In this document: positions 16,904-50,867 of the stretch, one piece after another
Layout of the letters: every line of letters begins with the position of its first letter
Numbering within the stretch: the stretch's first letter is position 1
IMG/VR virus record: IMGVR_UViG_3300047276_000460
Location: 1 to 56,709 of that record
Length of the DNA stretch: 56,709 nt
Origin: a virus
Lineage: Duplodnaviria > Caudoviricetes
Strand: one strand, 5' to 3'
The notes under the pieces: generated by a model
What the model saw: only the letters and a program-made list of their open reading frames with translations
Told to the model about the DNA's origin: nothing
Databases searched by the model: none
Program-made: the position numbers and the translations under genes

Positions 16904-17223
16904 TGCCGCTGTATCTCAATACGCGCGGGCGCACCTCGCTCGGGATCGGCATCTGCTCGCGCTGTAGCCGCAAGTTCCCGCTCGACCTGCTCCAGCCGGA
17001 CCCGAATTACCCCGGCCTGCGCGTGTGCGACAAAGACAAGGACCATTTCGATCCGTACCGGCTTCCTGCGCGGCAGCCGGACAACATCGGCCTCCCGTTT
17101 TCGCGCCCAGACGTACCAATCCCCACCAACCCTGCGGGCGTCATCGCGCAGAACGAAGACCAGTTTCTCATCACCGAGGACAACGACGATTTCATCATTT
17201 TCTTCGAGGATGAAGAACTGTGA
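16903..17223 (+). CDS. Small CxxC zinc-binding protein (paralog 2) with acidic tail
   Basis: CSRCSRKFPL...PGLRVC..D.D.FDPYRLP; TGATG coupling. Confidence 0.7.
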   Translation: MPLYLNTRGRTSLGIGICSRCSRKFPLDLLQPDPNYPGLRVCDKDKDHFDPYRLPARQPDNIGLPFSRPDVPIPTNPAGVIAQNEDQFLITEDNDDFIIFFEDEEL

Positions 17224-20200: not shown

Positions 20201-21464
20201 CCTCAAGGCGGAGGCATCCTCGGGTGAAACGCGCCTCACCTCTGGGTTCACGGCATTTGGTGGGTACACGACGTTCTACACCAATGGCTCCGAACGCGCC
20301 CGCATCGACAGCAGCGGCAACGTCGGGATCGGAACGACCAGCCCCTCATCCTTCGGCGGGTACACCAGCCTCACTGTCAGCAACCCCACAAATGGTGGTT
20401 TGGTTGAGGCGACAAACGGAACTCGCACGATCCGAATGCAGTCGCAGGCATCGGGCAGCGCGCTGATCGGAACGACCACCTCGCACAGCCTTGGCATCAT
20501 GACCGCTGGCGTGGAGCGGGTCACCCTCGATACCAGCGGCAACGTGGGGATCGCAACCACGACACCACAGCGCCCCCTGCACGTCTTTTATGACAGCGCG
20601 GTCACAGGTCAGTACACGATGGTCTTGCAGGGGAGGACTGGCGGCTACGGTGCAGGCGTCAGCTTCCAATCAAACCTGACTGGTGGATCGCTCGCCGAAA
20701 TGGCGCGCATCACGGCTGACGGCGAAGACGCATGGAACACGACCGCATCGACGCAAGATGCTGGCCTGCGCTTCTACACGTCGCTTGATGGCACGGTCGC
20801 TGAGAAAATGCGGATCACCTCAGCGGGCAACGTCGGGATTGGGACGACTGCGCCTAGCTACACGCTGGATGTCCGCACTAACGCGAGCAACGCACTGCGT
20901 GTTGGCTCCTCAAGCAACGCTTTTGGTACACTCCTGTCATGGGACAATCCATCGGGCGAAGCGCGCCTCACGTCACTGGGGGCCTATTCTCTTACATTCG
21001 GCACCAACTCCACTGAGCGCATGCGCATCGACAGCAGCGGCAACGTCGGGATCGGGACGAGTTCTCCGGTTAGTAAGCTGCACGTCAACACGTCAACAGG
21101 GGCTATCTACTCCACTACCGGAAACGATGCGGGTGGAACCCAAATCGGTGTTGACACCTCAGGTGTCTCTGTTCTGTCCGCCTATGCCACCAATGCAATT
21201 CGCTTTGGTTACAACAGCGGCTCGACCTTTGTTGAGACAATGCGCCTCAGTGCCAGCGGCAATCTCAGCATCGGGACAACTTCGCCGGGGACTGGCACCA
21301 TCCTTGATGTACAGTCCACCACAAAGGGCGTGCGCTTCCCGAACATGACGACGACGCAGAAAAACGCGATCACGCCTGCGGCTGGCACCGTTGTCTTCGA
21401 CACCACGCTTGGCAAGCTGTGCCTCTACACTGGTGCGGCGTGGCAGACGATTACCTCAGCTTAA
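17220..21464 (+). CDS. Long tail fibre protein
   Basis: 1414 aa G/T/S-rich; GTVTSV..SGGTTGLTF.G.PITTSGT and ERMRIDSSGNVGIGT.SP repeats. Confidence 0.88.
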   Translation: MSVPTNLIPTKITGLPEYDGTSQLGFFPYVLEGRTYKVQFAQIAATSAVPPTRSINTGVGLAGGGNLTQDRTIYIANEGVGYAQLNKSGVVAGTYGNALNVPAITVDDTGRVTSVVSTPIVLPQYVPTSRTITAGTGLSGGGDLSTNRTLSINFSSATPQPLGVATAGSGTQAARDDHVHPAVDLSDITETQGVLPLARGGTGNALSPVVGAVAYSSSDKLYLTPTAGNAGQVLTSAGGVGAPYWQTITGTGTVTSVNLTAGTGISVAGGPITTAGSITVTNTAPDQIVSLTGAGTTTVTGTYPNFTITSTDAYGGTVTSVAMTVPTGLQVTGSPITTSGTLAVSLQSGYSIPTTASQANWDTAYTDRLKWDGGATGLVAATGRTSLGATTVGGNFFTLTNPSAITFPRINADNTVSALDAASFRTAIGAGTGSGTVTSVNVSGNTTGLTFTGGPITTSGTLTLGGTLVVANGGTGATTAAGARTNLGAAASGANSDITSMSGITGSIGSPTYIQFGNGSGTTLAAGRMWYDQTTGSLNMGMGGGNITQQIGEELFVYGKASAAITDSPLQIVYQTGTVGASGVITFAPTVAGITDGNMIVGVATENIALNGFGRVTSFGIVHGITTNGTAYGEVWADGDVIWYNPVTGNPTNVKPVAPNIKVQVGILIKAGSGGSGSIQVEVNHGSVLGGTDSNVQITSVANNDLLQYSSSLGYWRNVALTSTAVTSFSGGTTGLTPSSATTGAITLGGTLNVANGGTGQTSYTNGQLLIGNTTGNTLTKATLTAGTNISITNGAGSITINATDQYTGTVTSVAASGGTTGLTFTGSPITTSGTITLAGTLGVANGGTGATTLTSGYLVKGNGASAVSASVVYDNGTNVGIGTSSPSAKLHVRPTTDVNHLFSFSGAAATYLAVNDASSAYVDCLKYANTFQFYTASTERMRILASGNVGVGTSSPNSKLEVFGGNVRSALASASSATLRGFVMASDSTEFASLKAEASSGETRLTSGFTAFGGYTTFYTNGSERARIDSSGNVGIGTTSPSSFGGYTSLTVSNPTNGGLVEATNGTRTIRMQSQASGSALIGTTTSHSLGIMTAGVERVTLDTSGNVGIATTTPQRPLHVFYDSAVTGQYTMVLQGRTGGYGAGVSFQSNLTGGSLAEMARITADGEDAWNTTASTQDAGLRFYTSLDGTVAEKMRITSAGNVGIGTTAPSYTLDVRTNASNALRVGSSSNAFGTLLSWDNPSGEARLTSLGAYSLTFGTNSTERMRIDSSGNVGIGTSSPVSKLHVNTSTGAIYSTTGNDAGGTQIGVDTSGVSVLSAYATNAIRFGYNSGSTFVETMRLSASGNLSIGTTSPGTGTILDVQSTTKGVRFPNMTTTQKNAITPAAGTVVFDTTLGKLCLYTGAAWQTITSA

Positions 21465-40742: not shown

Positions 40743-41140
40743 TTCGCTTTCTCTCTGGCGATGATGCGGCTGCCGAAGAAGACGACTTTCTCGGCGTCAT
40801 AGGTGGCGCTGTCCTGCCCCGGCTTGCCGTGGCCCTGCCGCAGCGCTGCGATGCGCCACGCGGCCTTGAAGACGTTCGCGACGTCGTACTCCATGTTGAG
40901 CGCCTCGATGATGTCGTTGCACTCCGCCATGTACGGCTCGCCGCCGGACGTCGGTGCCTTGACTTCGATCTTGTAATAGTCCGACGATCCGCCGGTCAGC
41001 TTGCGCCCATCCGCGCGGCTGGCGTCGCGCCCCGGATTGATGTCGAGATGCCCAGCGTAGCACGCCTCCATCGCGGTCAGATTGTCGTGCATGCTCCAGC
41101 ACTTTGTGCAGGTGTAGATGGTGTCCTGCAGTCGCTTCAT
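40739..41140 (-). CDS. DUF3310 / T7 gp1.7-like nucleotide kinase-like protein
   Basis: GG..DYY, EC.DIIEAL.M....NVFKA.WR, K......D..K pattern. Confidence 0.6.
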   Translation of the reverse strand: MKRLQDTIYTCTKCWSMHDNLTAMEACYAGHLDINPGRDASRADGRKLTGGSSDYYKIEVKAPTSGGEPYMAECNDIIEALNMEYDVANVFKAAWRIAALRQGHGKPGQDSATYDAEKVVFFGSRIIAREKAK

Positions 41141-42504
41141 TTCGATCCCTTCCGTTTCATCGCCTCGAGCAGCACCGCCTGCACGCTCTTTTTCGATTGT
41201 AGGCGCTCGAAGACCATCTCGTCGACGGTGTCCTTCGCCATAATCATGTGGATGAACACGGGCCGGTCGAGGCCCGCCTGCGCCTGCCGCATCGGCCCGA
41301 TGCGCTCGATGATCTGCATATATTCTTCAAGGTTCCAGTTCAGGCCGAAGAAGGCAAGGATGTTGCCGCCCTCGGCAAGGTTCAGACCGTGCCCGGCTGA
41401 CGCGGGGTGCGCCAGCAGCAGGTCGATCTTGCCCGCGTTCCAGTCTTTGATCGTCTGCGGGTCGGCGTCCAGTACGCGCGCCTTCGGATAGCGCCCGCGC
41501 AGCCGCGCCAAGTCGCTCTTGAAGTTGTACGCGACGAGGACAGGCGTCCCGTTGGCCTCCTCGATCACGCTGTCGAGGGCGTGCAGCTTGGCGTCGTGTA
41601 CCGCCTCCCACTTGCCCTCGTCATCGACGTAGATCGCGCCGTTGGCGAGCTGGAGGCACTTCACGGTGCGCGCAGCGGCGTTGACGGCGTCGATCTCGTA
41701 CTCGCCGATCTGGGCGAACATGTCCTTCTCCATCTCGTCGTACAGCCGCCTGACAGGGCCGTTCAGCTCGACGTAGATGCGGTTGACGATAGGCTCGTCC
41801 ACCGGCAGGCCCTCGACGGTCAGGCAGATGTCGCGCAGCAGGCCCTCAATCTCGGTCTGGGCGTGCGGCATCGGCTCGATGCTGTACCCATCCCAACCCT
41901 TGCGAAACCAGCGCTCCTCGAAGGCGCTGAACGTCTTGCCGAGGCGGGCGCCCCGGTCGAGGAACCATGTCTGCCCCCACAGGTCTTTGACGCCATTGGC
42001 GCCGGGCGTCCCTGTGAGGCCGATGAAGCGCTTTACGTGCGTGTGGGCTACCTTACCCAGTGCGCGGGCGCGCTTGCTGCCCTGACGCAGCCTGAAGGAC
42101 TTCAGGCGGGTAAATTCGTCGGCCACGACCGTCTTGAAGGGCCATTCCTCGCCGACGGTCTCGGCCAGCCAGACGAGGTTGTCATAGTTCATGGTGTATA
42201 TGTCCGCCTCCGCCGCGAGCGCTCGCTCGCGCTGCATCGCCGTGCCGGTGATGACGCTGACGCTCAGGTGCTTGAGGTGGTCCCACTTCGCCACTTCCTC
42301 GGGCCATGTGCTGCGCGCGACGCGTAGCGGCGCGAGGACGAGCATCGGGTAGACGTCGTCGATCAGCGACAGGTTGTCGAGCGCCGTCAGCGTCGTGACC
42401 GTCTTCCCGCCGCCCATGGGCATCCATAGGGCGCAGCGGGGCAAGTCGTACAGCCACTGCATCGCAGGGAGCTGGTAGTCGTGCGGGACGAAGGTTTTCG
42501 TCAC
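41137..42504 (-). CDS. SNF2-family helicase
   Basis: MPMGGGKT, VADEFT, GLTGTP, HPASAGHGLNL, Q..ERI motifs; GTG start at 42504. Confidence 0.92.
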   Translation of the reverse strand: MTKTFVPHDYQLPAMQWLYDLPRCALWMPMGGGKTVTTLTALDNLSLIDDVYPMLVLAPLRVARSTWPEEVAKWDHLKHLSVSVITGTAMQRERALAAEADIYTMNYDNLVWLAETVGEEWPFKTVVADEFTRLKSFRLRQGSKRARALGKVAHTHVKRFIGLTGTPGANGVKDLWGQTWFLDRGARLGKTFSAFEERWFRKGWDGYSIEPMPHAQTEIEGLLRDICLTVEGLPVDEPIVNRIYVELNGPVRRLYDEMEKDMFAQIGEYEIDAVNAAARTVKCLQLANGAIYVDDEGKWEAVHDAKLHALDSVIEEANGTPVLVAYNFKSDLARLRGRYPKARVLDADPQTIKDWNAGKIDLLLAHPASAGHGLNLAEGGNILAFFGLNWNLEEYMQIIERIGPMRQAQAGLDRPVFIHMIMAKDTVDEMVFERLQSKKSVQAVLLEAMKRKGSK

Positions 42505-42680
42505 TGGCAGTCCTCGCAGACGTGGACCCACTCGCCGTCGTCGAGGCGCGCGGCCCCGCCGTGCAGCTTGTACTCCTCCAGCGCGTCGCGGAAGTCGAGG
42601 CTGTCCGCCTCGAAGGTCTCGCCGCACTCGTCGCAGGTGAACGTCGTCGTGCGGTCGGCGTAGTTTTTGCGAAAGCTCAT
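42501..42680 (-). CDS. Small CxxC...CxxC zinc-finger protein
   Basis: TCDECG...HVCEDC. Confidence 0.7.
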   Translation of the reverse strand: MSFRKNYADRTTTFTCDECGETFEADSLDFRDALEEYKLHGGAARLDDGEWVHVCEDCQ

Positions 42681-42861: not shown

Positions 42862-42920
42862 GTTGCTGACCAACTCCATATGGCAGATCAACTAGCTGGT
42901 TGCAAGCGTTTTTGTATTTT
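42862..42920 (-). promoter_or_regulatory. Promoter cassette PE4 (direct-repeat copy A)
   Basis: TTGCAA-17nt-CATATG-6nt-GTCAGCAAC-TCAGGAG; 42852-42905 matches 43647-43700 at 49/54. Confidence 0.8.
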
Positions 42921-43484
42921 CCGGCGCGATTTGCGAGTGAGGCCCTTTGCGAACCGCAGTTTGCCGGGCGTTTTTAGCTGCACGTACCCCAGCGCCTCAA
43001 TTTCAGCCTTGCGGAGAGATCGGCTTCCCGAGTGGAAAGCGCGCCGCGATACGATGACGCCTTGAGCGTCGCGGTATGCGCGGTTTTCTTCGCACTGGCC
43101 CAGCGCGACCCAACTGGCGGCGCGATACACACCCCCAGTGTGTCCGGCATTGGGGTCCGCGTAAGAGACAATGCCCTGCACCGAAGGGAACGCGCTGCGG
43201 AAAACCGAAAGGCTTTCGGAAATCGCGCGGCTGAGCAAGTTCCGCTCGTGCCCGTCTGGTGCCCAAAGCCGCGAGAGTTCCCAAACCGCGTTGTCTTCAC
43301 CGAGAAGCCATCGGCTGATGTTCTTGTTGGCGGGGATCGAGTACACCACGATGGCGCTCCCGTACCGAACGTAGAACGACTTACCGCTGGGCACGCTGCG
43401 TGTGTAATGGTTTTCGCAAATAGTCTCTTGCGCGCGGACCCGGTCAGCGCCTTCCAATATCTGCGGAGCAAGGGTTTCTTGCAT
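42888..43484 (-). CDS. mom: Mom-family (GNAT-fold) DNA adenine modification enzyme
   Basis: NHY, ELSRLW..D...RN..S..IS.SL, IVSYADP..GH.G.VY.A..W..LG: the Mu Mom-like signature. Confidence 0.75.
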   Translation of the reverse strand: MQETLAPQILEGADRVRAQETICENHYTRSVPSGKSFYVRYGSAIVVYSIPANKNISRWLLGEDNAVWELSRLWAPDGHERNLLSRAISESLSVFRSAFPSVQGIVSYADPNAGHTGGVYRAASWVALGQCEENRAYRDAQGVIVSRRAFHSGSRSLRKAEIEALGYVQLKTPGKLRFAKGLTRKSRRKIQKRLQPAS

Positions 43485-43656: not shown

Positions 43657-43720
43657 GTTGCTGACCAGCATGGTATGGCAGATCAACTAGCTGGTTGCAA
43701 CCCCCTCGCGAACTTTTTTT
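43657..43720 (-). promoter_or_regulatory. Promoter cassette PE5 (direct-repeat copy B)
   Basis: TTGCAA-17nt-CATACC-6nt-GTCAGCAAC-TCAGGAG; IR ACCAGC/GCTGGT. Confidence 0.8.
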
Positions 43721-43983
43721 ACGATCTCGTCGATGTCCGCCTTCGACCGGGCGACAAACACCGGCACGCCGTCTCGCTCCATGCGCTCGATCTCGCGCTT
43801 CTGGGGGCTGCTCAGGACGTCGCCGTCGGCCTTGATCTCGACGAACGCGACGCAGGGCCACGTCCACCAGATGAAGCAGTCAGGGCAGCCCCTGCGGTTT
43901 TCCCAGCGCGCCTTGCGGTACTGGCCGCCGCTCTTCTGCACGACGTGCTTGAGGTGGTCCTGAAGGCGGCCTGCGGGGGTCAT
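43687..43983 (-). CDS. VRR-NUC nuclease
   Basis: G.PD, FVEIK, Q.RE..R motifs; typical position after PolA. Confidence 0.85.
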   Translation of the reverse strand: MTPAGRLQDHLKHVVQKSGGQYRKARWENRRGCPDCFIWWTWPCVAFVEIKADGDVLSSPQKREIERMERDGVPVFVARSKADIDEIVKKVREGVATS

Positions 43984-43985
43984 GC

Positions 43986-45944
43986 TCAGTCCTTCTTGTA
44001 GCGGTAGGTTTCGAAGCCCGCAGCCGCCAGCGGCAGCCCAGTCGCCCACGAGGGGTTGGTCGCCATCAGTGACGCCAAGGTCGCGTGTGTATAGTGTGTA
44101 TCGTCCGGCGTCTCGCAGATCAGCTCGTCATGGACGCGCAGCACGACAGGGTAGCCCGCCAGTTCGGCGTTGCGCATGCCGGTCATGAAGACGTCCCGCG
44201 CAACAGCCTGCACAATGTTCTCGACCAGCTTGCCGCCATAGGTGTCGAGCGTGTCCCACTTGCGCGTGTACTGGTTGAGGCCCTCGTACAGGATGCGGCC
44301 ATCCTCGTCGATGTACGGCTTGCGGTAGCTGAGATAGCGCCCCGAGGGCAGGCGGATGCGCAGCCACTGCGTCCCCTGCCGGTCGTACGTGATGCCGAAG
44401 CGCAGGTCGCGCACGACCGTGGTGCTGTCCGGCTCGCGGATCGCGGCCTTGGCTGCGTTCTCGACGTCGTACCAGAAGCGCTTGGTGTTGGGGTGCGCCG
44501 CACGCCACGCCCAGACGATGTTTTGAATTTCTTCGTCGTCCATGGTGCTGAACACTTCACCGCCCATCTTGCGGTATGCGCCGAGACCGCCTCCATAGCC
44601 TCCCGACAATTCGGGAACTTTGCCTTGGTTTTGGCGCTCCGCTTTCGTCACGTCGCCGGGGTCTTTGCCGAGGATGCGGCCCGCTGTGATCTTGTACAGG
44701 TCGTGACCGATGCCGTTGTCGTAATCCTTGAAGGCCTGCACCTTCCACGTCTCGCCCGCCAGCCACGCCAGCACGCGCCCTTCGATGTTCGACAGGTCGG
44801 CGACGGCCAGCTTGCAGCCCGGCGCGGCGACGATGCAGCCGCGCACGGCGGACGCGCACAGGTCCGAGACGTTGTCGAAGATCAGGTCTTCGCAGTCCGC
44901 CTTCATCGCCGCGATGCCCGCCTCGATCTCGTCCGCCTCCATGCTCGGGCGCGGCAGGTTCTGCGGCTGGAAGATGCGCCCGGCGTCGCGGCCAGTGCGC
45001 GCGGCGCCACAAAACTGGAGCGTGCCGCGCAGGCGGCTGTCGCTCGACGTCGCCTTCAGGAGCACCTTGTACTTGGCTGGGCTGGTCGCGGCGGCCTGCG
45101 CCCTGTTCTCGAGCAGGAGACGCACCGGCTGCGGCAGATCGCCCTTCAGGAGACCGGCGACGGTGTCTTTGGTGAGGTCCGGCACGACGAAGCCGTGTTC
45201 CTCTTCGAGGTGCTTCAGGAGCACCGCGCGCTGCGTCGTGGAGCGAACTATACCGTCGGTGGCAGCGGTGGCAGCAGCGGCCAGAGTTCCCGAAGCTCGT
45301 TGAAAAGCTCGTAGGGCTGAGGCTGCGAGGTCGAGGTCAATGGCGACACCACGGTCATTAATTCTCTGATCGAGTTCCCATAGTTCGCGCTCAAAGTGAC
45401 TGGTATTCCATGTGGGGAGGGCTGCATGTACGTAGCGCATCGCGTCCACATCGAGCCGGGCGTACTCGACGAAGGCTGCCCATTCGGTGGGGTGTGTGTC
45501 ACGCGTGGCCCTCCGCAGCTTCACGTTCTTGGGACGTGGCTTTGTGAAGAGCTGTATCAGCTTCTTGCCCTCTTTGTCTTTAGCCTTGTCGGTCGGCACG
45601 CCCAGAACGTCGCAGAGCATGCCGAGCGACGCCGGGAGGCTGTGCGCCAGCGCCTGCACCATCGTGTCGTGTACGCGCTCGACAGGCAGCTCCACGCCCC
45701 TGTGACGCAGCACGGTGCGGTCGAAGGCGCTGTTGTGGATGACGACGCGGTCGGCGCGGTCGATGAGGCTCTGGACGTCGCGCAGGTCGCGCAGGCCCTC
45801 GGTCATGTCCCAGACGGTGACAGGGTCGGTGTCCCACGCGAAGGCGACGAGGAGCACTTCCGCGTCCTCGGCATAGCGATGCGCGCCGTTGGTGATCGGC
45901 GTCTCGCTGTAGGTCTCGAGATCAAGGTGGAGTGTTGCTGACAT
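43986..45944 (-). CDS. polA: Family A DNA polymerase with 3'-5' exonuclease
   Basis: ExoI DLETYS, HNSAFDR, YARLDV; motif A DLSNIEGR; motif B RNQGKVPELSGGYG; motif C VHDELI. Confidence 0.95.
   Translation of the reverse strand: MSATLHLDLETYSETPITNGAHRYAEDAEVLLVAFAWDTDPVTVWDMTEGLRDLRDVQSLIDRADRVVIHNSAFDRTVLRHRGVELPVERVHDTMVQALAHSLPASLGMLCDVLGVPTDKAKDKEGKKLIQLFTKPRPKNVKLRRATRDTHPTEWAAFVEYARLDVDAMRYVHAALPTWNTSHFERELWELDQRINDRGVAIDLDLAASALRAFQRASGTLAAAATAATDGIVRSTTQRAVLLKHLEEEHGFVVPDLTKDTVAGLLKGDLPQPVRLLLENRAQAAATSPAKYKVLLKATSSDSRLRGTLQFCGAARTGRDAGRIFQPQNLPRPSMEADEIEAGIAAMKADCEDLIFDNVSDLCASAVRGCIVAAPGCKLAVADLSNIEGRVLAWLAGETWKVQAFKDYDNGIGHDLYKITAGRILGKDPGDVTKAERQNQGKVPELSGGYGGGLGAYRKMGGEVFSTMDDEEIQNIVWAWRAAHPNTKRFWYDVENAAKAAIREPDSTTVVRDLRFGITYDRQGTQWLRIRLPSGRYLSYRKPYIDEDGRILYEGLNQYTRKWDTLDTYGGKLVENIVQAVARDVFMTGMRNAELAGYPVVLRVHDELICETPDDTHYTHATLASLMATNPSWATGLPLAAAGFETYRYKKD
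45248..45502 (-). CDS. Candidate overprinted 84-aa gene nested in polA (+1 frame)
   Basis: GGAGG SD 7 nt before GTG; polA codons turn rare while the alternate frame is GC3-rich. Confidence 0.5.
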   Translation of the reverse strand: MTHTPPNGQPSSSTPGSMWTRCATYMQPSPHGIPVTLSANYGNSIRELMTVVSPLTSTSQPQPYELFNELRELWPLLPPLPPTV

Positions 45945-45948
45945 ATTT

Positions 45949-46040
45949 CCCTCTTTGTTTAGGTGAGCCGCGCGCGTGTCGTGTCAGCAACTGGGAGAGG
46001 GAGCACCCAAAGTGCGCGCGGCTCGCCTAAACAAAGTGGG
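45949..46040 (-). ncRNA. polA 5' leader: 23-bp stem-loop whose loop is antisense to the early-leader motif
   Basis: Arms 45953-45975 / 46014-46036 (22/23 WC); loop holds GTCAGCAACTGGGAGAGGGAG on the + strand. Confidence 0.6.
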
Positions 46041-46078
46041 CCGCAACCACATATAGCGGTTGCGGCCACTCTTGGCAA
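46039..46078 (-). promoter_or_regulatory. Dual terminator/promoter PE6 upstream of polA
   Basis: TTGCCA-17nt-TATATG with the -10 at the apex of the GGCCGCAACC/GGTTGCGGCC stem; followed by CTTTGTTT. Confidence 0.65.
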
Positions 46079-46336
46079 CTAAATCAGGTCGAGACCCAAA
46101 GCCGCCTTATAGACGTCAAGGATCGCCTCAAATTCCTGACGCTTTTCCTTGTCCATCTTACGGATGCGGACGACTTCGCGGAGCACCTTGCCGACATATC
46201 CACGGGCCTTCGCCTCGATGTAGATGTCCTTGATGTCATCCGCGATGCCCGCCTTCTCTTCCTCGAGACGCTCGATGCGCTCGACGAGGAGGCGAAGCTC
46301 GTCCGCCGCGACGCTGTTGTGCCCCGCGCCGCTCAT
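46079..46336 (-). CDS. gapR: GapR-like (DUF2312) nucleoid-associated protein
   Basis: LR..VERIERLEEEK..I..DIKDIY.EAK.RGY..K.LR..VR.RK.D signature. Confidence 0.88.
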   Translation of the reverse strand: MSGAGHNSVAADELRLLVERIERLEEEKAGIADDIKDIYIEAKARGYVGKVLREVVRIRKMDKEKRQEFEAILDVYKAALGLDLI

Positions 46337-46905
46337 CAGAAGAGGTCCGATGCGTCGGCGGCGAAGTCAGCGAAGTCGTCCTTCGACGCGACGCTGCCGC
46401 CGCCACCGAAGTTCTCGCCGTCTTCCGCGAACATCACGCCCGAGAGCGAGCAGTTGATCCGGCGACCCCATTTGTTGTCCTGCGCCCAGACATCGACCTT
46501 GGCGTTGACGATGGCGCCGCTGTAGATGAGACGCTTGATGTCGGACGTGTTGGTCACCTCCTCGGCCATGCGGTCGAACACCGTCGGGCGCGTCTTGGCG
46601 TTGCGCGCCGACAGATAGTGCTTGCCCGCGAAGCCGTTGTACGGCTCGCCAGTCTTCTTGTTGCGGTAGACCTTCTCGACGAGGCAAATCTTGCCGTCTT
46701 CCTTCAGCATCGAGACGACGCTGTCGGCCTTGTCCTTCCACTGGTCCTTCGCGACGGTCGCGATGGCGTCCAGCAGCGCCTTGTGGTGCTCGCCGTCGGG
46801 GGTGATGACGAACTTGGCGCCATAGGCAGGCTCACCTTCACCAAACGACTGCGGGGCGTCCAGCGCGGGGAATGCGATCTGGACCTTCTTCAGCATAACT
46901 TCCAT
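46336..46905 (-). CDS. ssb: Single-stranded DNA-binding protein (DUF2815-like)
   Basis: FP.L..P, YSG..VN, DNKWG.RIN..L.GV.F..DGE.FGGG, acidic tail ending in F. Confidence 0.85.
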   Translation of the reverse strand: MEVMLKKVQIAFPALDAPQSFGEGEPAYGAKFVITPDGEHHKALLDAIATVAKDQWKDKADSVVSMLKEDGKICLVEKVYRNKKTGEPYNGFAGKHYLSARNAKTRPTVFDRMAEEVTNTSDIKRLIYSGAIVNAKVDVWAQDNKWGRRINCSLSGVMFAEDGENFGGGGSVASKDDFADFAADASDLF

Positions 46906-46915
46906 TGTCAGTTCC

Positions 46916-48157
46916 TCAGTTCTCAGTTTCAACAAGATCGCCGAACCCTTCGGCGACCGGGGTAACGACCAGTTCTGGCCGCTTATCCGTGGCGGGTGCC
47001 ACAGATGGCTTGCCCTCGCTGCGCACGAGCAACGGCTCGATCTTCGCCCAGCGCTTGGGACTATCTTTCAGGAGCTTCTCCGCTTTCGTTGGTGACACGA
47101 GCTTCATCTCATACATCTCGTCCTGCCGCAACCGGAAAGACTTGAGCGTCGCTTCGGCCTCGGCTTCGTCGGCCCATGCGCGGTTGCCGCGACGGCCCTC
47201 GACGAGCTTCCAGCCGTCCACCTTCTGCCCGGCGAGCAGGCGGCGTTCCGCCTCGGCGCGGACGGCCTTGCACCAGTCTTCGACGAGGCCGACCTTCGAC
47301 ATGGCAATCGGCAGGTAGTTGTCGCTGACCTGCATATCGACCTCGATAGGCACGAACGCGGCGAAGTCCTCCGGCGTGGCGGGCGAGTGCGTCTCGCCGC
47401 CGACGTTGAGCATGATCTCCTCGCGCAGCGCGGGGCAGATCGCCTTGGCGCGGCAGAAGCGGCACTGCTTCTCGCCCGGCTCGAAGAAGCCCTGCGTGAT
47501 GCCGTCGTTGGCCGTCAGATCGAGGCTCTCCGCAAGCCGGACGCGATCCGCCGCCTCCCGCGCCTTCTCGCCGAACGCGCGCAGCTCGCCGACCGGCAGG
47601 ATATACTCGCTGACGTGGTTCAGGCGCGGCTGGTGAATGACCATCATCACCTCGGTGAAGTCGGCCAGCATGTCGAAGTCGTTCAGCGCGCCGAGGGCGT
47701 ACAGCATGAGCTGCGGGTTCTCTTCCGCATCCACCTTGACGCCCATGCCGAACTTGAGATCGACCACGACGAGCTGGTCGCCCCTGACGATGACGGCGTC
47801 GGCGGTGCCGAAGCTGTCAGGCTGCCCGATGACCGGCGAGAAGTCCACGCGCTGCTCGACCAGCAGGCTGCCGCCCTCGGCGTACTCCCGCACCAGCTTG
47901 GCGTAGTCGAGGACGTGATCGACCATGTCCTGTGTGATCTTGAACGTCGTGCCGTCGTCGAAGCTCCAGTCCTCGCCGACGTACAGGCTCAAGTCCCAGT
48001 TGGCCGACAGGTTGCCCGCAGCCAGCTCGTGCGCGAGGGTGCCTTCCTTCGCGTAGTCGCTGCCCTTGTCGGGGATGTCGGCCTCGAGGACGAGACTGCC
48101 GGGGCAGGCCATCCAGCGGTGTGCCCCCGAGGGGCTGAGTTTGGCGTGCGCGCTCAT
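46916..48157 (-). CDS. DUF2800 / Cas4-like PD-(D/E)xK exonuclease
   Basis: [43 protein letters not shown]...CP. Confidence 0.88.
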
Positions 48158-48603
48158 CACGCCAGCACTGCCTTCAGCTCGGCCATCAGCGCCGGGAGCT
48201 TCTCGGCGGCAACCTGCGTCACGCGCTCGGCACCATACTTCTGCACGATGGCGGCGGCTGCGGGCTTGCCGAGCTTGGCCACGGCGGCGAGGACGAGCGG
48301 CTGCACGTCGCGCACGACGTCGATCTCAGGCTCAGAAGCGGCCTCGGGCTTCTCGGATGCAGTCTGAGACGCTTCCGTCGGCCCAGAGGAGGCAGGTTCC
48401 GACGACGCGGTCTGGTCGTTTCCCTCCGGTGCTGCTTCAACGGTCGGCTCCTCGACCTTCGCCTTCGGCTTGCGCGTTGCGGCCTGCTTCACTTCCGGCA
48501 TCACCGGATCGGCGGCAGTCGTCTGAAACTGCGCGGCGAGGGCCAGCGTCTTGCCAGCCAGTTCGGACAGCGTCTCCGCCGTGATTTCGATACGATACGT
48601 CAT
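48157..48603 (-). CDS. Hypothetical replication-module protein
   Basis: Low-complexity linker plus helical C-terminal domain; conserved position before DUF2800. Confidence 0.75.
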
Positions 48604-48796: not shown

Positions 48797-48846
48797 GTGC
48801 TGACAGGTGGGTGGTACAAGCGTCCAGTTGCATAAGTCAACTGTTC
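48797..48846 (-). promoter_or_regulatory. Promoter cassette PE7
   Basis: TTGACT-17/18nt-(G)TACCAC then GTCAGCAC-GAAGAGGAG; IR CAGTTG/CAACTG around -35. Confidence 0.6.
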
Positions 48847-50867
48847 TATTCGTGGAAAATAACGTAGCCGCTGCGGACTTCGAACGGGCCGTCCTTTTCG
48901 GAGCCGAGCTGCCTGATCGCGCGGCCCATGTCCTGACGGCGCGTGTCGCGCTTGTCGGGCGAGACCGGCGCGGGAAGCGCCTCGGCGCAGAGCGCCGCAA
49001 ACTCGACGAGGGGCATCATGTCGATCTTGGGGTCAACCGTGGCGATCATCTCGATGGCGTGCGTCTGGTACTTGCCGTACCGCTTCTGCTTGCCGCTCGG
49101 GGCCTCGCTCGGCACCGGCTTCGGCAGCTCGGCGTCGATGGCGACGCAGCTCGTGATCGGGTCGCCGTCGCGGTCGAAGCCCAGATCGACGATCTCCAGC
49201 TTGAAGCCCCATGCGAGATTGTCGTCGCCGTCCTTCATCTTCGTGACGCGCATCTCGCGCGCGCCGTTCTCGTGGCGCAGCACCTCCAGCTCGGCGTCCG
49301 CCGCAGCGCGCATGCCCGACCAGCCGCGTGCGCCCTTGCTGGCGTCCTTCCCGGCGTGGTGGATGAGCATGACCGTCGCGCCTGTCACGCGCGTCAGCGT
49401 GCGGCAGTTGCGCAGGGCGACGCCCATGTCCTCGCCGCTGTTCTCGTTCGCACCCGGCGTCATTTGGGCGAAGGTGTCGGCGATGATGAGGATCGGGTCG
49501 CCGCCTGCGGCTGCGATGGCGTCGAGCAGCTCGCCGATGTCGTCGCTGTCCATGATGTTCGGCGCGGCGGTGATGACGGCGAGGTCAACATCCTCGGGAT
49601 CGACCCCATGGACTTTGCAGGCCGCCTTGGTGCGCTTGCCGACACCCCCGCCGCCTTCCGCCGCGATGTACAGGACGCGACCGCGCTTCGTCTTGCGCCC
49701 GCGCCAGTCAACGCCGCGCGCGATGGCGAAGGCCATGTCGAGCGCCATGAAGCTCTTGCCGCTGCCCGAGGCGCCGTACAGGACGATCAGGTCATCCTGC
49801 GGCAGTACGCCCTTGATGATCCACTCGCTCGGCGGCCTGTTGGCCACGGCGTCGAGGGTCTCGATCTTGAACTTGCCCGAGAAGTTCTCCGGCGTGCGGA
49901 AGATGTCGCGCGGCTCCGCGCGTGCCATGATCTCCTGCCGCTTGGCCTCGTCAATCGGCGCCCGGCTCAGGGAGGCGACCATGTGCTTCACTGTCGCCAT
50001 GGTGACTTGCGGGCGCCTGTCACCCTTGCGCCGCTCGAAGCTCTCCCACTGCCCGCGCAGGGCCTCCTCGCTGGGGTATTTACCGCCGAGGCACGACCAG
50101 TCGTTCCACAGGTCGAAGCCGGTGTCGTCGCCCTGCGTCTCGTGGTGCAGGGCCATGCCGACGCGCACCCACTCGTCGCGGCCCATGTCGGGGTCGAGCT
50201 GGTCGAGCAGCGCCTCCATCTCCTCGACCTCGAGGCCGAGGGGCGGCTTGCGCCCGAGCATGAAGTCGTCGGGGTCGGCGGCCTGCGCCTCGCGCGGTCC
50301 GAAGCGGGCGGCGCACAGCGCCTCCACCTCGGGCGTCACCTTGGCGATGGTGGTGTCGTTGCCCATGATCTCGCACAGGTCGAAGACGTCGCCAGTGATC
50401 GTGACGAAGCCGCTCTCGCTGAACGTCTCGATCCCGTAGGGGTGGCCGGTGGTCGGCGACTTGCGGTTGGGGAAGTGCCCCTCGTAGACGCAGCGCAGGC
50501 CTTTGCCCGAGGGCGTCACCTCACTGTACGTCGATGCCGCGATCTGCGCGACGTCGGGCGGCACGTCGCCCTTGGCGTCGATGCAGTTGTCGAAGTCGAG
50601 GATGAGCAGGCCGTGCTCGGCGCGCGGGGCGAAGCCGAGGCCGTCGTAATAGCCGTCGCTGCTGGCCAGCGCCTCGCGCGCCTCGTCGAACGAGACCATG
50701 GCGCGGACGTCGTCCTCGGCGCCTTGCCGACCGGCGCGCTTGCGCCCGCTGGCGTAGTACGGAACCTTGCGAGGCTTCGCCTCGTCAGGGAATTGCTCGA
50801 AGCGCCACAGCAGCCACGCGCGGTGGCGGCGCAGTCCTTCGGGCACATTGCTGGTGGACGCTGACAC
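48846..50867 (-). CDS. Primase-helicase (AEP-like primase, PriCT-2, AAA_25/RepA-like helicase)
   Basis: KVPYY, LDFD, E.TPSGKGL, W.RVGMALH..W..WS..KY, YGASGSGKSF, IADT, IHHAGKD..ARGWS. Confidence 0.9.
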   Translation of the reverse strand: MSASTSNVPEGLRRHRAWLLWRFEQFPDEAKPRKVPYYASGRKRAGRQGAEDDVRAMVSFDEAREALASSDGYYDGLGFAPRAEHGLLILDFDNCIDAKGDVPPDVAQIAASTYSEVTPSGKGLRCVYEGHFPNRKSPTTGHPYGIETFSESGFVTITGDVFDLCEIMGNDTTIAKVTPEVEALCAARFGPREAQAADPDDFMLGRKPPLGLEVEEMEALLDQLDPDMGRDEWVRVGMALHHETQGDDTGFDLWNDWSCLGGKYPSEEALRGQWESFERRKGDRRPQVTMATVKHMVASLSRAPIDEAKRQEIMARAEPRDIFRTPENFSGKFKIETLDAVANRPPSEWIIKGVLPQDDLIVLYGASGSGKSFMALDMAFAIARGVDWRGRKTKRGRVLYIAAEGGGGVGKRTKAACKVHGVDPEDVDLAVITAAPNIMDSDDIGELLDAIAAAGGDPILIIADTFAQMTPGANENSGEDMGVALRNCRTLTRVTGATVMLIHHAGKDASKGARGWSGMRAAADAELEVLRHENGAREMRVTKMKDGDDNLAWGFKLEIVDLGFDRDGDPITSCVAIDAELPKPVPSEAPSGKQKRYGKYQTHAIEMIATVDPKIDMMPLVEFAALCAEALPAPVSPDKRDTRRQDMGRAIRQLGSEKDGPFEVRSGYVIFHE

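What the first reader, a model, noticed from the sequence alone, without database searches (positions are those of the whole stretch)
45248..45514. Overprinted gene inside DNA polymerase at the exonuclease-polymerase junction
Seen: in this stretch the PolA frame uses codons rare in this genome (CTA CGA GCT TTT CAA CGA GCT TCG GGA ACT ... GGT ATA GTT). The +1 frame reads in typical codons (TAC GAG CTT TTC AAC GAG CTT CGG GAA CTC TGG CCG CTG CTG ... TAG). That frame opens just after a TGA, has GGAGG (45514-45510, created by a rare AGG Arg codon) 7 nt before GTG 45502, and encodes 84 aa: a P/S/T-rich N-terminus and an amphipathic YELFNELRELWPLL helix. Normal PolA codon bias resumes after its stop. 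Inference: a real nested gene (or +1 frameshift tail yielding an exonuclease-only product) that standard annotation would miss.
Basis: partly seen in the sequence, partly recalled or inferred. Interest (0 to 1): 0.75.

Follow-up and report, generated by a model that had tools for sequence, protein, structure and literature searches.

The report
Hidden gene inside phage DNA polymerase
A small second gene of about 80 codons is written in a shifted reading frame inside this phage's DNA polymerase gene and has been kept intact, with its own start signals, in dozens of distantly related phages, so it is very probably a real protein that ordinary annotation misses.

Summary
ORF 45248-45502 (-), 84 aa, lies in the +1 frame of a phage family-A DNA polymerase gene (43986-45944, -). 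GGAGG sits 7 nt before its GTG.

In this genome alone the open frame is not surprising: it stays open in 56% of synonymous shuffles. The polymerase codon bias there, however, is the lowest of 9,928 windows tested in 20 long genes.

The decisive evidence is comparative, from 40 non-redundant polymerase genes (below 90% nt identity, synonymous sites saturated):
- The +1 core is stop-free in 40 of 40. Elsewhere in the gene a +1 window of that size is open in at most 44%.
- 39 of 40 have ATG or GTG at one of two positions 5 codons apart, each with its own GGAG-type Shine-Dalgarno.
- Synonymous variation falls to 0.775 of expectation, below every control window.
- The polymerase third-position GC dip occurs only in ORF carriers (mean -0.225 versus 0.000, p = 3e-19).
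- All 32 of 32 members of a supported polymerase clade carry the ORF, and one origin is not rejected.

RNA structure, frameshift tail, spanin and lysis-protein readings were tested and not supported. The product is a small acidic protein with a beta-hairpin and a C-terminal amphipathic helix, and matches no known family or fold. Translation and function are untested.

The parts
43986..45944 (-). Host gene: phage family-A DNA polymerase with 3'-5' exonuclease domain, 652 aa (the ancestral frame)
   Evidence: Pfam DNA_pol_A E 3.7e-12 and DNA_pol_A_exo1 E 1.1e-05 (residues 56-176). PHROG_17 DNA polymerase E 2.2e-117.
45521..45523 (-). TGA in the +1 frame, 6 codons upstream of the nested start; closes the +1 frame from upstream
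   Evidence: Read. The stop-to-start distance of 6 codons for WIN is.
45510..45514 (-). Shine-Dalgarno GGAGG, built from polymerase codons CGG AGG (the rare Arg codon AGG), 7 nt before the GTG
   Evidence: AGG is 16 of 556 Arg codons. GGAG[AG] stands at this place in all 17 class-A relatives. 13 of the window's 20 long ORFs have a GGAG/GAGG/AGGA match upstream.
45500..45502 (-). GTG start codon of the nested gene (class-A start position)
   Evidence: Among the 39 relatives the same position holds GTG in 16 and ATG in 1.
45248..45502 (-). Nested +1-frame gene, 84 codons plus TAG stop (45250-45248); overlaps polymerase codons 148-232
   Evidence: Conserved in 40 non-redundant relatives. 28 database proteins of 44-109 aa match its profile at E 1e-36 to 2e-12.
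45347..45406 (-). Residues 33-52 of the nested protein: predicted beta-hairpin (strands 33-41 and 44-52). Includes the conserved ELMTVVSP stretch, written over the polymerase's DQRINDRG with rare codons AGA ATT AAT CGT GGT
   Evidence: Two AlphaFold2 jobs gave the same topology, with pLDDT about 70-78 in this part. Codons read.
45275..45319 (-). Residues 62-76: predicted C-terminal amphipathic helix (E-L-x-x-E-L-x-[ED]-L-W-P-L motif). This is the part where the +1 residues are better conserved than the polymerase residues they overlap
   Evidence: Helix 62-72 and 62-76. E69 is invariant. L73 and W74 are invariant in A2 and at least 90% conserved in the 60-sequence set. In one search, L70 and L73 are 40 of 40 while the polymerase residue there varies among T, S and A. 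The +1/polymerase identity ratio is 1.01 over codons 213-224.
45270..45450 (-). Zone of depressed polymerase-frame codon bias (GC3 0.35-0.65, CAI 0.25-0.48)
   Evidence: Lowest CAI window in the genome set. The same dip is seen in all 47 ORF-bearing relatives and on average not in the 78 others.

Best explanation
45248-45502 (-) is a genuine overprinted (nested) protein-coding gene in the +1 frame of the phage DNA polymerase gene.

Mechanism. Ribosomes start independently inside the polymerase mRNA at GTG 45502. They are guided by the GGAGG that the polymerase frame supplies through a rare AGG Arg codon. They read 84 codons to TAG 45250-45248. The polymerase frame is the older one, because it has homologues everywhere. 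The +1 frame arose within one polymerase lineage and has been kept by purifying selection. That selection forces the polymerase to use otherwise rare codons across its codons 148-232, which explains the codon-bias dip.

Product. It is a small soluble acidic protein (family median pI 4.4), rich in S, T, L and P. It has a poorly ordered N-terminal third, a beta-hairpin and a C-terminal amphipathic helix (E-L-x-x-E-L-x-E/D-L-W-P-L).

Shown and inferred. Frame conservation, start signals, synonymous constraint and clade distribution are shown. Actual translation is inferred. The function is a guess: the helix most likely docks the protein onto a partner, either a replisome component made from the same operon or a host protein. 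I would give that guess no more than about 1 in 3.
For: 1. Open frame. In 40 non-redundant polymerase genes (below 90% nt identity; this window plus 39 metagenomic or IMG/VR sequences) the +1 core (polymerase codons 153-224) has no stop in 40 of 40. The other frames give +2: 0 of 40, and antisense: 13, 21 and 0 of 40. Apart from two windows that merely overlap the ORF's upstream flank, any 72-codon +1 window elsewhere in the gene is open in at most 44% of sequences. Mean P(open) under synonymous shuffling is 0.295 per sequence.

2. Start signals. 17 relatives plus the window have GTG (16 plus the window) or ATG (1) at the class-A position, with GGAG[AG] 7 nt upstream. 21 have ATG (20) or GTG (1) five codons downstream, with GGGAGA or GGAGA about 9 nt upstream. 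Only 1 of 40 (L125) has neither. Among unique regions, start plus Shine-Dalgarno is present in 45 of 47 ORF carriers against 8 of 78 non-carriers.

3. Synonymous constraint.
   - Observed/expected synonymous codon differences are 0.775 over codons 148-232 against 1.008 for the rest. The lowest of 399 non-overlapping 85-codon windows is 0.871. Column permutation gives p <= 5e-5.
   - Third-position diversity is 0.325 against 0.488.

4. Conservation of the +1 protein.
   - The +1/polymerase identity ratio is 0.54-0.57 upstream of the starts, 0.79-1.01 inside the ORF and 0.61 after the stop.
   - In 40-codon windows the z-score is 3.5-5.2, against a maximum of 2.07 outside.
   - When both overlapped polymerase residues are identical, the +1 residue is identical in 77.3% of pairs against 60.2% elsewhere (maximum of 423 outside windows: 69.2%). 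Replacements are milder, with mean BLOSUM62 -0.76 against -1.22.
   - At 13 positions the +1 residue is better conserved than the polymerase residue.

5. Natural control. GC3(region) minus GC3(gene) averages -0.225 in 47 carriers, all negative. It averages 0.000 in 78 non-carriers (Mann-Whitney p = 3e-19).

6. Phylogeny. On a polymerase tree built without the overlapped columns, 32 of 32 members of a supported clade (SH-aLRT 96) carry the ORF. The minimum number of changes is 2. The AU test does not reject one clade for all 34 carriers (p = 0.637; the constrained tree is 7.5 lnL better).

7. Independent gene calls. Gene callers in other assemblies called the same ORF with the same starts. 28 clusters match, all unnamed or 'hypothetical protein'.
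Against: - There is no expression or translation evidence of any kind.
- In the window alone the ORF is not statistically unusual: P(open) = 0.56.
- The carrier group was first picked by a peptide motif in the +1 frame. That is circular for the motif itself, although not for the other roughly 60 codons, the starts or the tree result.
- The sequences are related, so the counts are not independent events.
- The N-terminal half of the +1 peptide is partly dictated by conserved polymerase residues. Non-carrier polymerases translated in +1 also score up to 38 bits against the family profile.
- Within the ORF the +1 second positions are still more variable than its third positions (0.325 against 0.258). 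The +1 frame is therefore not the dominant constraint.
- The AlphaFold2 models have only moderate confidence (pLDDT 62.6 and 66.4, pTM 0.35 and 0.38).
- No family, fold or partner gives a function.
Confidence: 0.85

Rival explanations
1. Programmed +1 ribosomal frameshift. Ribosomes translating the exonuclease domain slip into the +1 frame near the GGAGG and the rare AGG codon. They make an exonuclease-only protein with the 80-aa tail, so there is no separate small protein.
For: - A Shine-Dalgarno-like GGAGG and a rare AGG codon lie just upstream. From recall, both are known stimulators of frameshifting.
- In 12 of 39 relatives the +1 frame is open for 23 codons or more upstream of the start.
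- One metagenomic protein (P0031, 212 aa) is an exonuclease N-terminus joined to the +1 peptide.
Against: - +1-frame stops lie 0-6 codons before the start in 16 of 39 sequences. In L117 a TAG directly abuts the ATG. Any shared shift site would therefore have to coincide with the start codon itself.
- 39 of 40 have ATG or GTG there. The Shine-Dalgarno moves with the start between two positions. That is what initiation requires and frameshifting does not.
- +1 conservation begins at the start codon rather than upstream: the ratio is 0.54-0.57 before it and 0.86 after it.
- I saw no slippery motif in the 21 nt between TGA and GTG (by eye).
- P0031 is one cluster on two contigs. It lacks about 14 polymerase codons at the joint, so it looks like a deletion or an assembly error.
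Confidence: 0.04
2. Non-coding constraint. The conserved synonymous sites reflect an RNA structure or a DNA site (internal promoter, origin or regulatory site) inside the polymerase gene, and the open +1 frame is incidental.
For: - Nucleotide conservation raises identity in the +2 frame as well.
- A sigma-70-like match lies at 45274-45247 (1 found against 0.2 expected).
Against: - RNAalifold on 24 carriers gave -10.83 kcal/mol over 255 columns, with a covariation term of -0.36. Only 1 of 26 pairs had a compensatory change.
- A non-coding element does not explain frame-specific stop avoidance: +1 is open in 40 of 40 and +2 in 0 of 40, with a mean of 6.3 stops.
- It does not explain a shared stop position, paired start and Shine-Dalgarno relocation, or milder amino-acid replacements in +1.
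- The promoter-like match lies in the window-specific C-terminal extension and is not in the shared core.
Confidence: 0.04
3. Chance ORF plus a local composition anomaly. The segment could be a mosaic piece acquired from a lower-GC relative. Alternatively it could be a rare-codon cluster selected to pause translation at the exonuclease-polymerase domain boundary.
For: - ORFs of this length are common in this GC-rich genome. One search lists 42 ORFs of 50 aa or more between 43000 and 48000. P(open) = 0.56 for this one.
- The dip sits near a domain boundary (Pfam exonuclease match 56-176).
Against: - The dip is confined to ORF carriers. It is absent on average from 78 other polymerases that have the same domain boundary and similar polymerase residues.
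- What is conserved is specific codons, not merely rare ones. CGA gives the invariant +1 Glu, and NCT plus CTG gives the +1 Leu-Trp pair.
- Less biased codon use without constraint should raise synonymous diversity, but it is lowered.
- Synonymous sites outside the ORF are saturated within the clade (third-position diversity 0.49). An unameliorated transfer therefore cannot be old enough to be shared by the whole clade.
Confidence: 0.04

Closest known systems
Lambda Rz/Rz1 two-component spanin, embedded architecture (PMC6139136; passages read)
   Same: [quoted passage not shown] It is routinely missed by gene callers. The embedded product is rich in disorder-promoting residues such as Pro.
   Different: - Rz1 is an outer-membrane lipoprotein in the lysis cassette that binds Rz. 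The protein here has no lipobox (0 of 39) and no membrane segment.
- This gene sits in a replication enzyme gene.
- No interaction with the host-gene product has been shown here.
phiX174 overprinted genes (E inside D, B and K inside A) and other de novo viral overprinted genes (recalled; reviews PMC8227390 and PMC3494269 seen as listing and abstract only)
   Same: A new frame is born inside an older gene. The novel protein is short, compositionally biased and taxonomically restricted. The older frame pays with unusual codon use.
   Different: Those cases are in tiny ssDNA or RNA genomes under strong size limits. This one is in a 56.7-kb dsDNA phage, inside a conserved catalytic enzyme. It has two alternative start sites across the clade.
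POLG ORF-Y (POLGARF) in mammals (PMC7059407; abstract and outline read)
   Same: An overlapping ORF lies inside a DNA polymerase gene. It arose de novo in one clade. It was detected through an alternative-frame coding signature plus reduced synonymous variation of the polymerase frame.
   Different: - That case is a eukaryotic nuclear gene with CUG initiation near the 5' end of the mRNA, supported by ribosome profiling and peptides.
- Here the signals are a bacterial-type Shine-Dalgarno with GTG or ATG in mid-gene, and there are no expression data.
- The two ORFs are not related. That POLG is a family-A polymerase is my recall.
Programmed frameshift products such as dnaX tau/gamma or prfB (recalled; review PMC5009743 seen in a search listing only)
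   Same: A Shine-Dalgarno-like element and a rare codon lie inside a coding region just before a second open frame.
   Different: No shared shift window exists and no slippery site was seen. A start codon is present in 39 of 40, and conservation begins at that start.

Membership tests
Same-strand embedded (overprinted) protein-coding gene | ORF lies wholly inside another gene, in a different frame on the same strand | tested here: met
   45248-45502 lies inside 43986-45944, offset +1.
Same-strand embedded (overprinted) protein-coding gene | The alternative frame is kept open across diverged homologues more than chance allows | tested here: met
   Open in 40 of 40 over the core, against at most 44% for +1 windows clear of the ORF and 0 of 40 for +2. 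Shuffle mean P(open) is 0.295.
Same-strand embedded (overprinted) protein-coding gene | Own translation-initiation signals (start codon plus ribosome-binding site) | tested here: met
   GGAGG, 7 nt, then GTG in the window. Start plus Shine-Dalgarno in 39 of 40, at two co-varying positions. 45 of 47 carriers against 8 of 78 non-carriers.
Same-strand embedded (overprinted) protein-coding gene | Reduced synonymous variation of the host frame, confined to the overlap | tested here: met
   0.775 against 1.008, below all 399 control windows, p <= 5e-5. The boundaries match the ORF.
Same-strand embedded (overprinted) protein-coding gene | The product is actually translated (ribosome profiling, peptides) and has a phenotype | not testable with these tools
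   No RNA, ribosome-profiling or proteome data could be reached. See Tried and rejected.
Programmed +1 ribosomal frameshift site | A conserved shift site, with the new frame open from that site in all members | tested here: not met
   Upstream +1 stops lie 0-6 codons before the start in 16 of 39, and directly adjacent in L117. No slippery motif was seen.
o-spanin (Rz1-like embedded lipoprotein) | N-terminal lipoprotein signal with a lipobox Cys | tested here: not met
   A lipobox-like pattern in the first 30 residues was found in 0 of 39. The gene is in the replication module, not the lysis module.
Single-gene lysis protein (phiX174 E or MS2 L type) | A hydrophobic transmembrane segment | tested here: not met
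   The best 19-residue Kyte-Doolittle window has a median of 0.83 and a maximum of 1.65, against a threshold I took as about 1.6. Median pI is 4.43.
Any curated protein family or solved fold, for the nested product | A significant profile or fold match | tested here: not met
   - Pfam: 0 families for the window protein. Among 60 members, at most 2 match any one family, best E 0.029.
- PHROGs: 0. NCBIfam: 0 for 3 members.
- PDB sequences: 0 at E <= 1.
- Foldseek: 0 hits at E <= 0.001 in PDB (best 0.63) and in BFVD (best 0.28).
Family-A DNA polymerase with 3'-5' exonuclease (the host gene) | Matches to the polymerase and exonuclease domain profiles | tested here: met
   PF00476 scores 46.3 bits (cut-off 34.3) and PF01612 scores 25.7 bits (cut-off 23.6). 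PHROG_17 E 2.2e-117. No catalytic residue check was made.

The most novel reading that the evidence does not exclude
The exonuclease-polymerase junction of this phage polymerase family may be an old, recurrent home for a fast-evolving nested accessory gene.

Besides the main clade, I saw the same class-A signal (AGGAG[AG], 7 nt, then GTG) with a long open +1 frame in several deep lineages, usually with a GC3 dip:
- L101, L124 and L145: all exactly 104 codons, with the same start and stop.
- L126, L139 and L143.
- L029 and L038.
- L059 and L176.

If these are one family, the gene predates much of the polymerase family's diversification and has been lost many times. By analogy with Rz/Rz1, physical embedding may keep a polymerase-binding or replisome-binding partner genetically welded to its polymerase allele.
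Probability: 0.25. Interest if true: 0.85.

Novelty: new member of a known kind. Interest (0 to 1): 0.7.

Why it matters
- Well-supported embedded genes in dsDNA phages are few. From recall, spanins are the textbook case. I found none reported inside a phage DNA polymerase gene in four full-text searches.
- This case rests on unusually clean comparative evidence: 40 diverged sequences, sister lineages without the gene as a control, and two co-varying start sites.
- It is directly testable, because the start, the Shine-Dalgarno or a +1 stop can be changed without altering the polymerase protein.
- It adds a new orphan protein family to a widespread group of uncultured phages of about 56 kb.
- It gives a worked example of how a catalytic enzyme tolerates overprinting at a domain junction.
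- It warns that 'synonymous' recoding or codon optimisation of phage polymerase genes can destroy a second gene.
- It shows that a local collapse of codon bias is a usable single-genome flag for such genes.

Tried and rejected
Readings tested and not supported
- RNA structure as the cause of the constraint. RNAalifold on 24 carriers gave a weak fold and 1 of 26 compensatory pairs. Rejected.
- Frameshift tail. See the rival explanations; rejected.
- Spanin or lysis protein. No lipobox and no transmembrane segment.
- DNA-mimic idea. D plus E is only about 10% of residues, so I did not pursue it.

Searches for a family, fold or relatives
- Homology or fold for the product: Pfam, PHROGs, NCBIfam, PDB sequences, and Foldseek against PDB and BFVD gave nothing significant.
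- Cultured phages: tblastn of the 84-aa protein against 50,697 phage records gave 8 records, all with E >= 3. The nearest cultured polymerases are Caulobacter phages RW, KcrB, RLK and GB2A, at 70.4% nt identity over 81%. They gave no tblastn match to the nested protein and have no feature annotated inside the polymerase.
- A profile search of the +1 translations of non-carriers cannot separate remote homologues from by-products of polymerase homology. 118 of the 140 loci that cover the region score at E <= 10, so I make no homology claim for the divergent lineages.
- Relatives of L145: 8 further polymerases examined lack the start, the Shine-Dalgarno and the dip. The 104-codon variant therefore stays at 3 sequences.
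- Longer fused forms: 1 hit, P0031, read as a deletion or an assembly artefact.

Expression
- no RNA holder listed. I did not lay reads, because the runs are kept as contigs, which cannot show translation.

I therefore could not confirm that the 28 database proteins all lie inside polymerase genes.

Literature limits
Genome-wide surveys of overlapping genes (PMC8903798, PMC7017920, PMC6188560; seen only as listing and abstract) may list this pair in tables that I could not see.

Rows dropped
- 3 of the first 143 loci did not cover the region.
- The tree used only unique polymerases of 600-760 aa (95 rows). Partial, split and insert-bearing genes were left out, and the columns for window residues 140-240 were removed.
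- One search used the 26 of 40 sequences with 640 or more aligned codons.
Full report
THE LOCUS

The window is a complete 56,709-bp, single-contig, phage-like genome of 63.3% GC.

On the minus strand, 43986-45944 encodes a 652-aa family-A DNA polymerase with a 3'-5' exonuclease domain. Pfam gives DNA_pol_A at E 3.7e-12 and DNA_pol_A_exo1 at E 1.1e-05 for residues 56-176. PHROG_17 'DNA polymerase' scores E 2.2e-117.

The gene sits in a replication module. The neighbours are a primase-helicase (48846-50867), an exonuclease (46916-48160), a gp2.5-like ssDNA-binding protein (46336-46935), an endonuclease-like gene (43687-44049), a Mom-like gene (42888-43484) and a helicase (41137-42627).

The nearest cultured relatives of the polymerase are Caulobacter phages RW, KcrB, RLK and GB2A, at 70.4% nucleotide identity over 81% of the gene.

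CHECKING THE OBSERVATION

- The ORF 45248-45502 (-) starts with GTG, has 84 codons and is in the +1 frame of the polymerase.
- The +1 frame is closed by TGA at 45523-45521.
- GGAGG lies at 45514-45510, 7 nt before the GTG, and uses the polymerase's AGG codon.

I built a codon table from 19 long ORFs (10,437 codons). In it the named codons are rare:
- ATA: 1 of 469 Ile codons.
- CTA: 5 of 830 Leu codons.
- AGA 2, AGG 16 and CGA 22 of 556 Arg codons.
- GGA: 47 of 1060 Gly codons.

In 20-codon windows the polymerase-frame GC3 falls to 0.35-0.55 and CAI to 0.25-0.38 between codons about 171 and 235. CAI is back at 0.85 by codon 236. The +1 frame has positive coding log-odds only for windows starting at codons 196-211.

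The 60-codon window at polymerase codons 174-233 has the lowest CAI (0.29) of 9,928 windows in 20 long genes. None of 9,335 windows in the other genes is lower.

The open frame alone is not remarkable. With synonymous codons permuted within the gene, the +1 frame stays open in 55.8% of 2,000 trials.

RELATIVES

Protein-guided scans gave the following.
- 57 loci in IMG/VR.
- 6 loci in genome contigs.
- 80 loci in metagenome contigs, kept from 121 confirmed.

Of these 143 loci, 140 cover the region.

A large group at 57-73% polymerase identity to the window over residues 100-280 has an open +1 frame of 70-164 codons there. The +1 peptides are alignable without gaps. Their consensus runs M-S-G ... 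S-S-N-T-P ... M-W-T-Q-C-E-T-Y ... G-T-I ... T-K-E-L-M-T-V-V-S-P-S ... S-E-L-x-x-E-L-x-E-L-W-P-L-V.

After removing sequences above 90% nucleotide identity, 40 remain, including the window.

TESTS ON THE 40 SEQUENCES

(a) Stops.
- Over the shared core (polymerase codons 153-224), +1 is stop-free in 40 of 40.
- +2 is stop-free in 0 of 40, with a mean of 6.3 stops.
- The three antisense frames are stop-free in 13, 21 and 0 of 40.
- 72-codon +1 windows starting at codons 145 and 157 are open in 97% and 95% of sequences. The next windows are open in 0%, because the stop position is shared.
- Apart from the two flank-overlapping windows at codons 145 and 157, the maximum anywhere else in the gene is 44%.
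- Over codons 148-226, 37 of 40 are open. The three exceptions have a stop just before the downstream start (L117) or a stop three codons earlier (L083, L079).
- Synonymous shuffling gives a mean P(open) of 0.295 per sequence.

(b) Starts.
- Class A is the window's position. It holds GTG in 16 relatives plus the window, and ATG in 1. All have GGAG[AG] 7 nt upstream, made from AGG/CGG plus AGA/AGG Arg codons.
- Class B lies five codons downstream. It holds ATG in 20 and GTG in 1. GGGAGA, GGAGA or GGGA lies about 9 nt upstream, made from the polymerase's Arg-Glu-Thr codons.
- One sequence (L125) has neither.
- Product lengths among the 38 relatives with a recognised start are 75 aa (19), 80 aa (16), and 72, 77 and 85 aa (1 each). 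The window's is 84 aa.
- Their stop codons are TGA 24, TAA 12 and TAG 2.
- The Shine-Dalgarno moving together with the start is what independent initiation predicts.

(c) Synonymous constraint.
- Codon differences among pairs that share the polymerase residue, against an amino-acid-specific expectation, are 0.775 over codons 148-232. The rest of the gene gives 1.008.
- The lowest of 399 non-overlapping 85-codon windows is 0.871.
- The best window overall starts at codon 157.
- Column permutation gives p <= 5e-5.
- Third-position nucleotide diversity is 0.325 against 0.488. The pos3/pos1 ratio is 1.26 against 1.76, with an outside minimum of 1.35.

(d) Conservation of the +1 protein relative to the polymerase.
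- The identity ratio is 0.57 in the 20 codons before the class-A start and 0.54 between the two starts.
- Inside the ORF it is 0.86, 0.79, 0.84 and 1.01 in successive blocks.
- After the stop it is 0.61.
- In 40-codon windows the excess over a regression on polymerase identity is z = 3.5-5.2. The maximum outside is 2.07. This used the 26 full-length sequences.
- When both overlapped polymerase residues are identical, the +1 residue is identical in 77.3% of pairs. Elsewhere it is 60.2%, and the maximum of 423 outside windows is 69.2%.
- +1 replacements are milder: mean BLOSUM62 is -0.76 against -1.22, with an outside maximum of -0.97.
- At 13 positions the +1 residue is clearly better conserved than the polymerase residue. 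One example is the +1 Leu at 40 of 40 where the polymerase has T17, S17 and A6, always written NCT.

(e) Natural control.
- Among unique regions, GC3(region) minus GC3(gene) averages -0.225 in 47 carriers, ranging from -0.357 to -0.055.
- It averages 0.000 in 78 non-carriers (Mann-Whitney p = 3e-19).
- Start plus Shine-Dalgarno is found in 45 of 47 carriers. The two exceptions are L107, which is truncated by the contig end, and L125.
- It is found in 8 of 78 non-carriers.
- Sister polymerases with similar residues at the same domain junction (for example L012 and L013) have +1 stops and no dip.

(f) Phylogeny.
- I built a maximum-likelihood tree of 95 unique full-length polymerases, with the overlapped columns removed.
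- It places 32 carriers in one supported clade (SH-aLRT 96) in which 32 of 32 carry the ORF.
- Two more carriers (L003, L087) sit in an adjacent unresolved group with two non-carriers.
- At least 2 changes are needed.
- An AU test does not reject a single clade of all 34 carriers. p = 0.637, and the constrained tree is 7.5 log-likelihood units better.
- Path lengths between the window and its nearest relatives are about 0.8 substitutions per site. The ORF has therefore survived long divergence.

RIVALS

- RNA structure. RNAalifold on 24 carriers gives -10.83 kcal/mol for 255 columns and a covariation term of -0.36. One of 26 pairs has a compensatory change.
- Frameshift tail. +1 stops lie 0-6 codons upstream of the start in 16 of 39, and in L117 the stop is adjacent to the start. 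There is no common shift window, and conservation begins at the start. A single 212-aa database protein joins the exonuclease N-terminus to the +1 peptide. It lacks about 14 polymerase codons at the joint and is a singleton cluster. I read it as a deletion or an assembly error.
- Pausing cluster or mosaic segment. These are contradicted by the carrier-only distribution of the dip and by lowered, not raised, synonymous diversity.

THE PRODUCT

- Composition of the family: S 13.4%, T 11.8%, L 11.3%, P 8.6%. Median pI is 4.43, and the window's protein has pI 6.0.
- There is no 19-residue hydrophobic window above a median of 0.83, and no lipobox in 0 of 39.
- Two AlphaFold2 runs, with 39 and 60 sequences, agree on the topology. 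Both show a beta-hairpin at 33-41 and 44-52, and a C-terminal helix at 62-72 (first run) or 62-76 (second run).
- Confidence is only moderate: pLDDT 62.6 and 66.4, pTM 0.35 and 0.38.
- The helix is amphipathic. Its hydrophobic moment is 1.45 against a shuffled mean of 0.78, and 5.1% of shuffles are as high.
- No Pfam, PHROG, NCBIfam, PDB-sequence, PDB-fold or BFVD-fold match is significant.
- Twenty-eight database clusters of 44-109 aa match the family profile at E 1e-36 to 2e-12. All are unnamed or 'hypothetical protein', and they use the same two start positions.
- tblastn against 50,697 cultured-phage records found nothing better than E = 3.

HOW IT MOST LIKELY WORKS

Shown: a second reading frame is under purifying selection, it has its own initiation signals, and it is confined to one polymerase lineage.

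Inferred: it is translated from the polymerase mRNA by internal initiation at GTG 45502.

Guess, at no more than about 1 in 3: the conserved acidic amphipathic C-terminal helix with its invariant Trp is a docking element. Its target would be a replisome protein or a host protein during the replication phase. Embedding would keep the gene co-inherited and co-expressed with its polymerase allele, as in Rz/Rz1. I could not test binding, because the complex predictor was unavailable.

COMPARISON AND NOVELTY

The architecture is that of known embedded genes.
- Lambda Rz1 lies in the +1 frame of Rz (PMC6139136, passages read).
- phiX174 E-in-D is the classic small-genome example (recalled).
- The evidence type parallels POLG ORF-Y (PMC7059407, abstract read).

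Four full-text searches returned no report of a nested gene in a phage DNA polymerase gene. Supplementary tables of genome-wide overlap surveys could not be seen.

I rate this a new member of a known kind. The genetic trick is known, while the gene, its protein family and its location are new.

WIDER PATTERN (partly followed)

Outside the main clade, several deep lineages carry AGGAG[AG]-type Shine-Dalgarno plus GTG at the same class-A position, with a long open +1 frame. Six of the 8 non-carriers that have a start plus Shine-Dalgarno show a GC3 dip greater than 0.1.
- L101, L124 and L145: 104 codons each, with identical start and stop positions. GC3 (region/gene) is 0.59/0.70, 0.55/0.70 and 0.48/0.64.
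- L126, L139 and L143.
- L029 and L038.
- L059 and L176.

Eight further relatives of L145 lack all of these features.

Profile scores cannot tell homology from polymerase-imposed similarity. Whether these are one old gene family or repeated births at the same site therefore remains open.

VERDICT

- Observation: confirmed.
- Nested-gene interpretation: supported, at about 0.85.
- Function: unknown.
- Experimental translation evidence: lacking.
- Interest: 0.7.

Noticed in passing
L101, L124 and L145 (polymerase region aligned to window 45248-45502): A second nested +1 ORF family. All three have AGGAG[AG], 7 nt, then GTG at the same position as the window's start. All are exactly 104 codons with the same stop position. 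All have a polymerase GC3 dip (0.59/0.70, 0.55/0.70, 0.48/0.64) and a shared W..LL.QL...HAPA motif. Eight further relatives of L145 lack it.
   Followed up: partly
L126/L139/L143, L029/L030/L033/L038, L059, L176 (same polymerase region): More lineages have a Shine-Dalgarno plus GTG at the class-A position and open +1 frames of 73-98 codons. Several have GC3 dips of -0.18 to -0.23. L029 and L038 end in L-W-P-x-S-K-S-D. Homology to the main family could not be separated from polymerase-imposed similarity.
   Followed up: partly
P0031 (212-aa database protein): The polymerase exonuclease N-terminus (to about residue 138) is joined directly to the nested +1 peptide. About 14 polymerase codons are missing at the joint. 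It is one cluster on two contigs. It is probably a deletion variant or an assembly error, not evidence of frameshifting.
   Followed up: partly
L125 (class-B start position): This is the only one of 40 carriers without ATG, GTG or TTG at either start position. It has ACG where the others have ATG, yet the rest of the ORF is intact. It could be a non-canonical start, a recent loss or a sequencing error.
   Followed up: no
L041, L062, L188, L195, L205, L207, L212; Caulobacter phage RW (L144 1487-4369): Some relatives have polymerase genes about 300 codons longer (977 aa in L041 and L062; 2.88 kb in phage RW). This suggests an in-frame insert such as an intein. The insert was not examined.
   Followed up: no
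L045-L056 (IMG/VR loci): In a dozen relatives the longest polymerase-frame ORF is only 237-426 codons, while the protein match spans the whole polymerase over 2.1-2.6 kb. The polymerase there is split or interrupted. The cause was not examined.
   Followed up: no
window 46039-46067 (-): A terminator-like hairpin (12 pairs, 9 G-C, T-rich tail) lies between the small PHROG_4212 gene and the polymerase start. The polymerase may therefore begin a transcription unit of its own.
   Followed up: no
window 45247-45274 (-): A sigma-70-like match (CTGCCA, 16 nt, TATAGT; 9 of 12) lies in the window-specific C-terminal extension of the nested ORF. It is not in the part shared with relatives.
   Followed up: no
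window 42448-42627 (-) and 21060-21240 (+): These are the next-lowest CAI windows in the genome set. The first is the first 60 codons of ORF 41137-42627 (CAI 0.31). The PHROG helicase match begins at residue 43, so the true start is probably further downstream. The second is codons about 1281-1340 of ORF 17220-21464 (CAI 0.37), which is unexplained.
   Followed up: no
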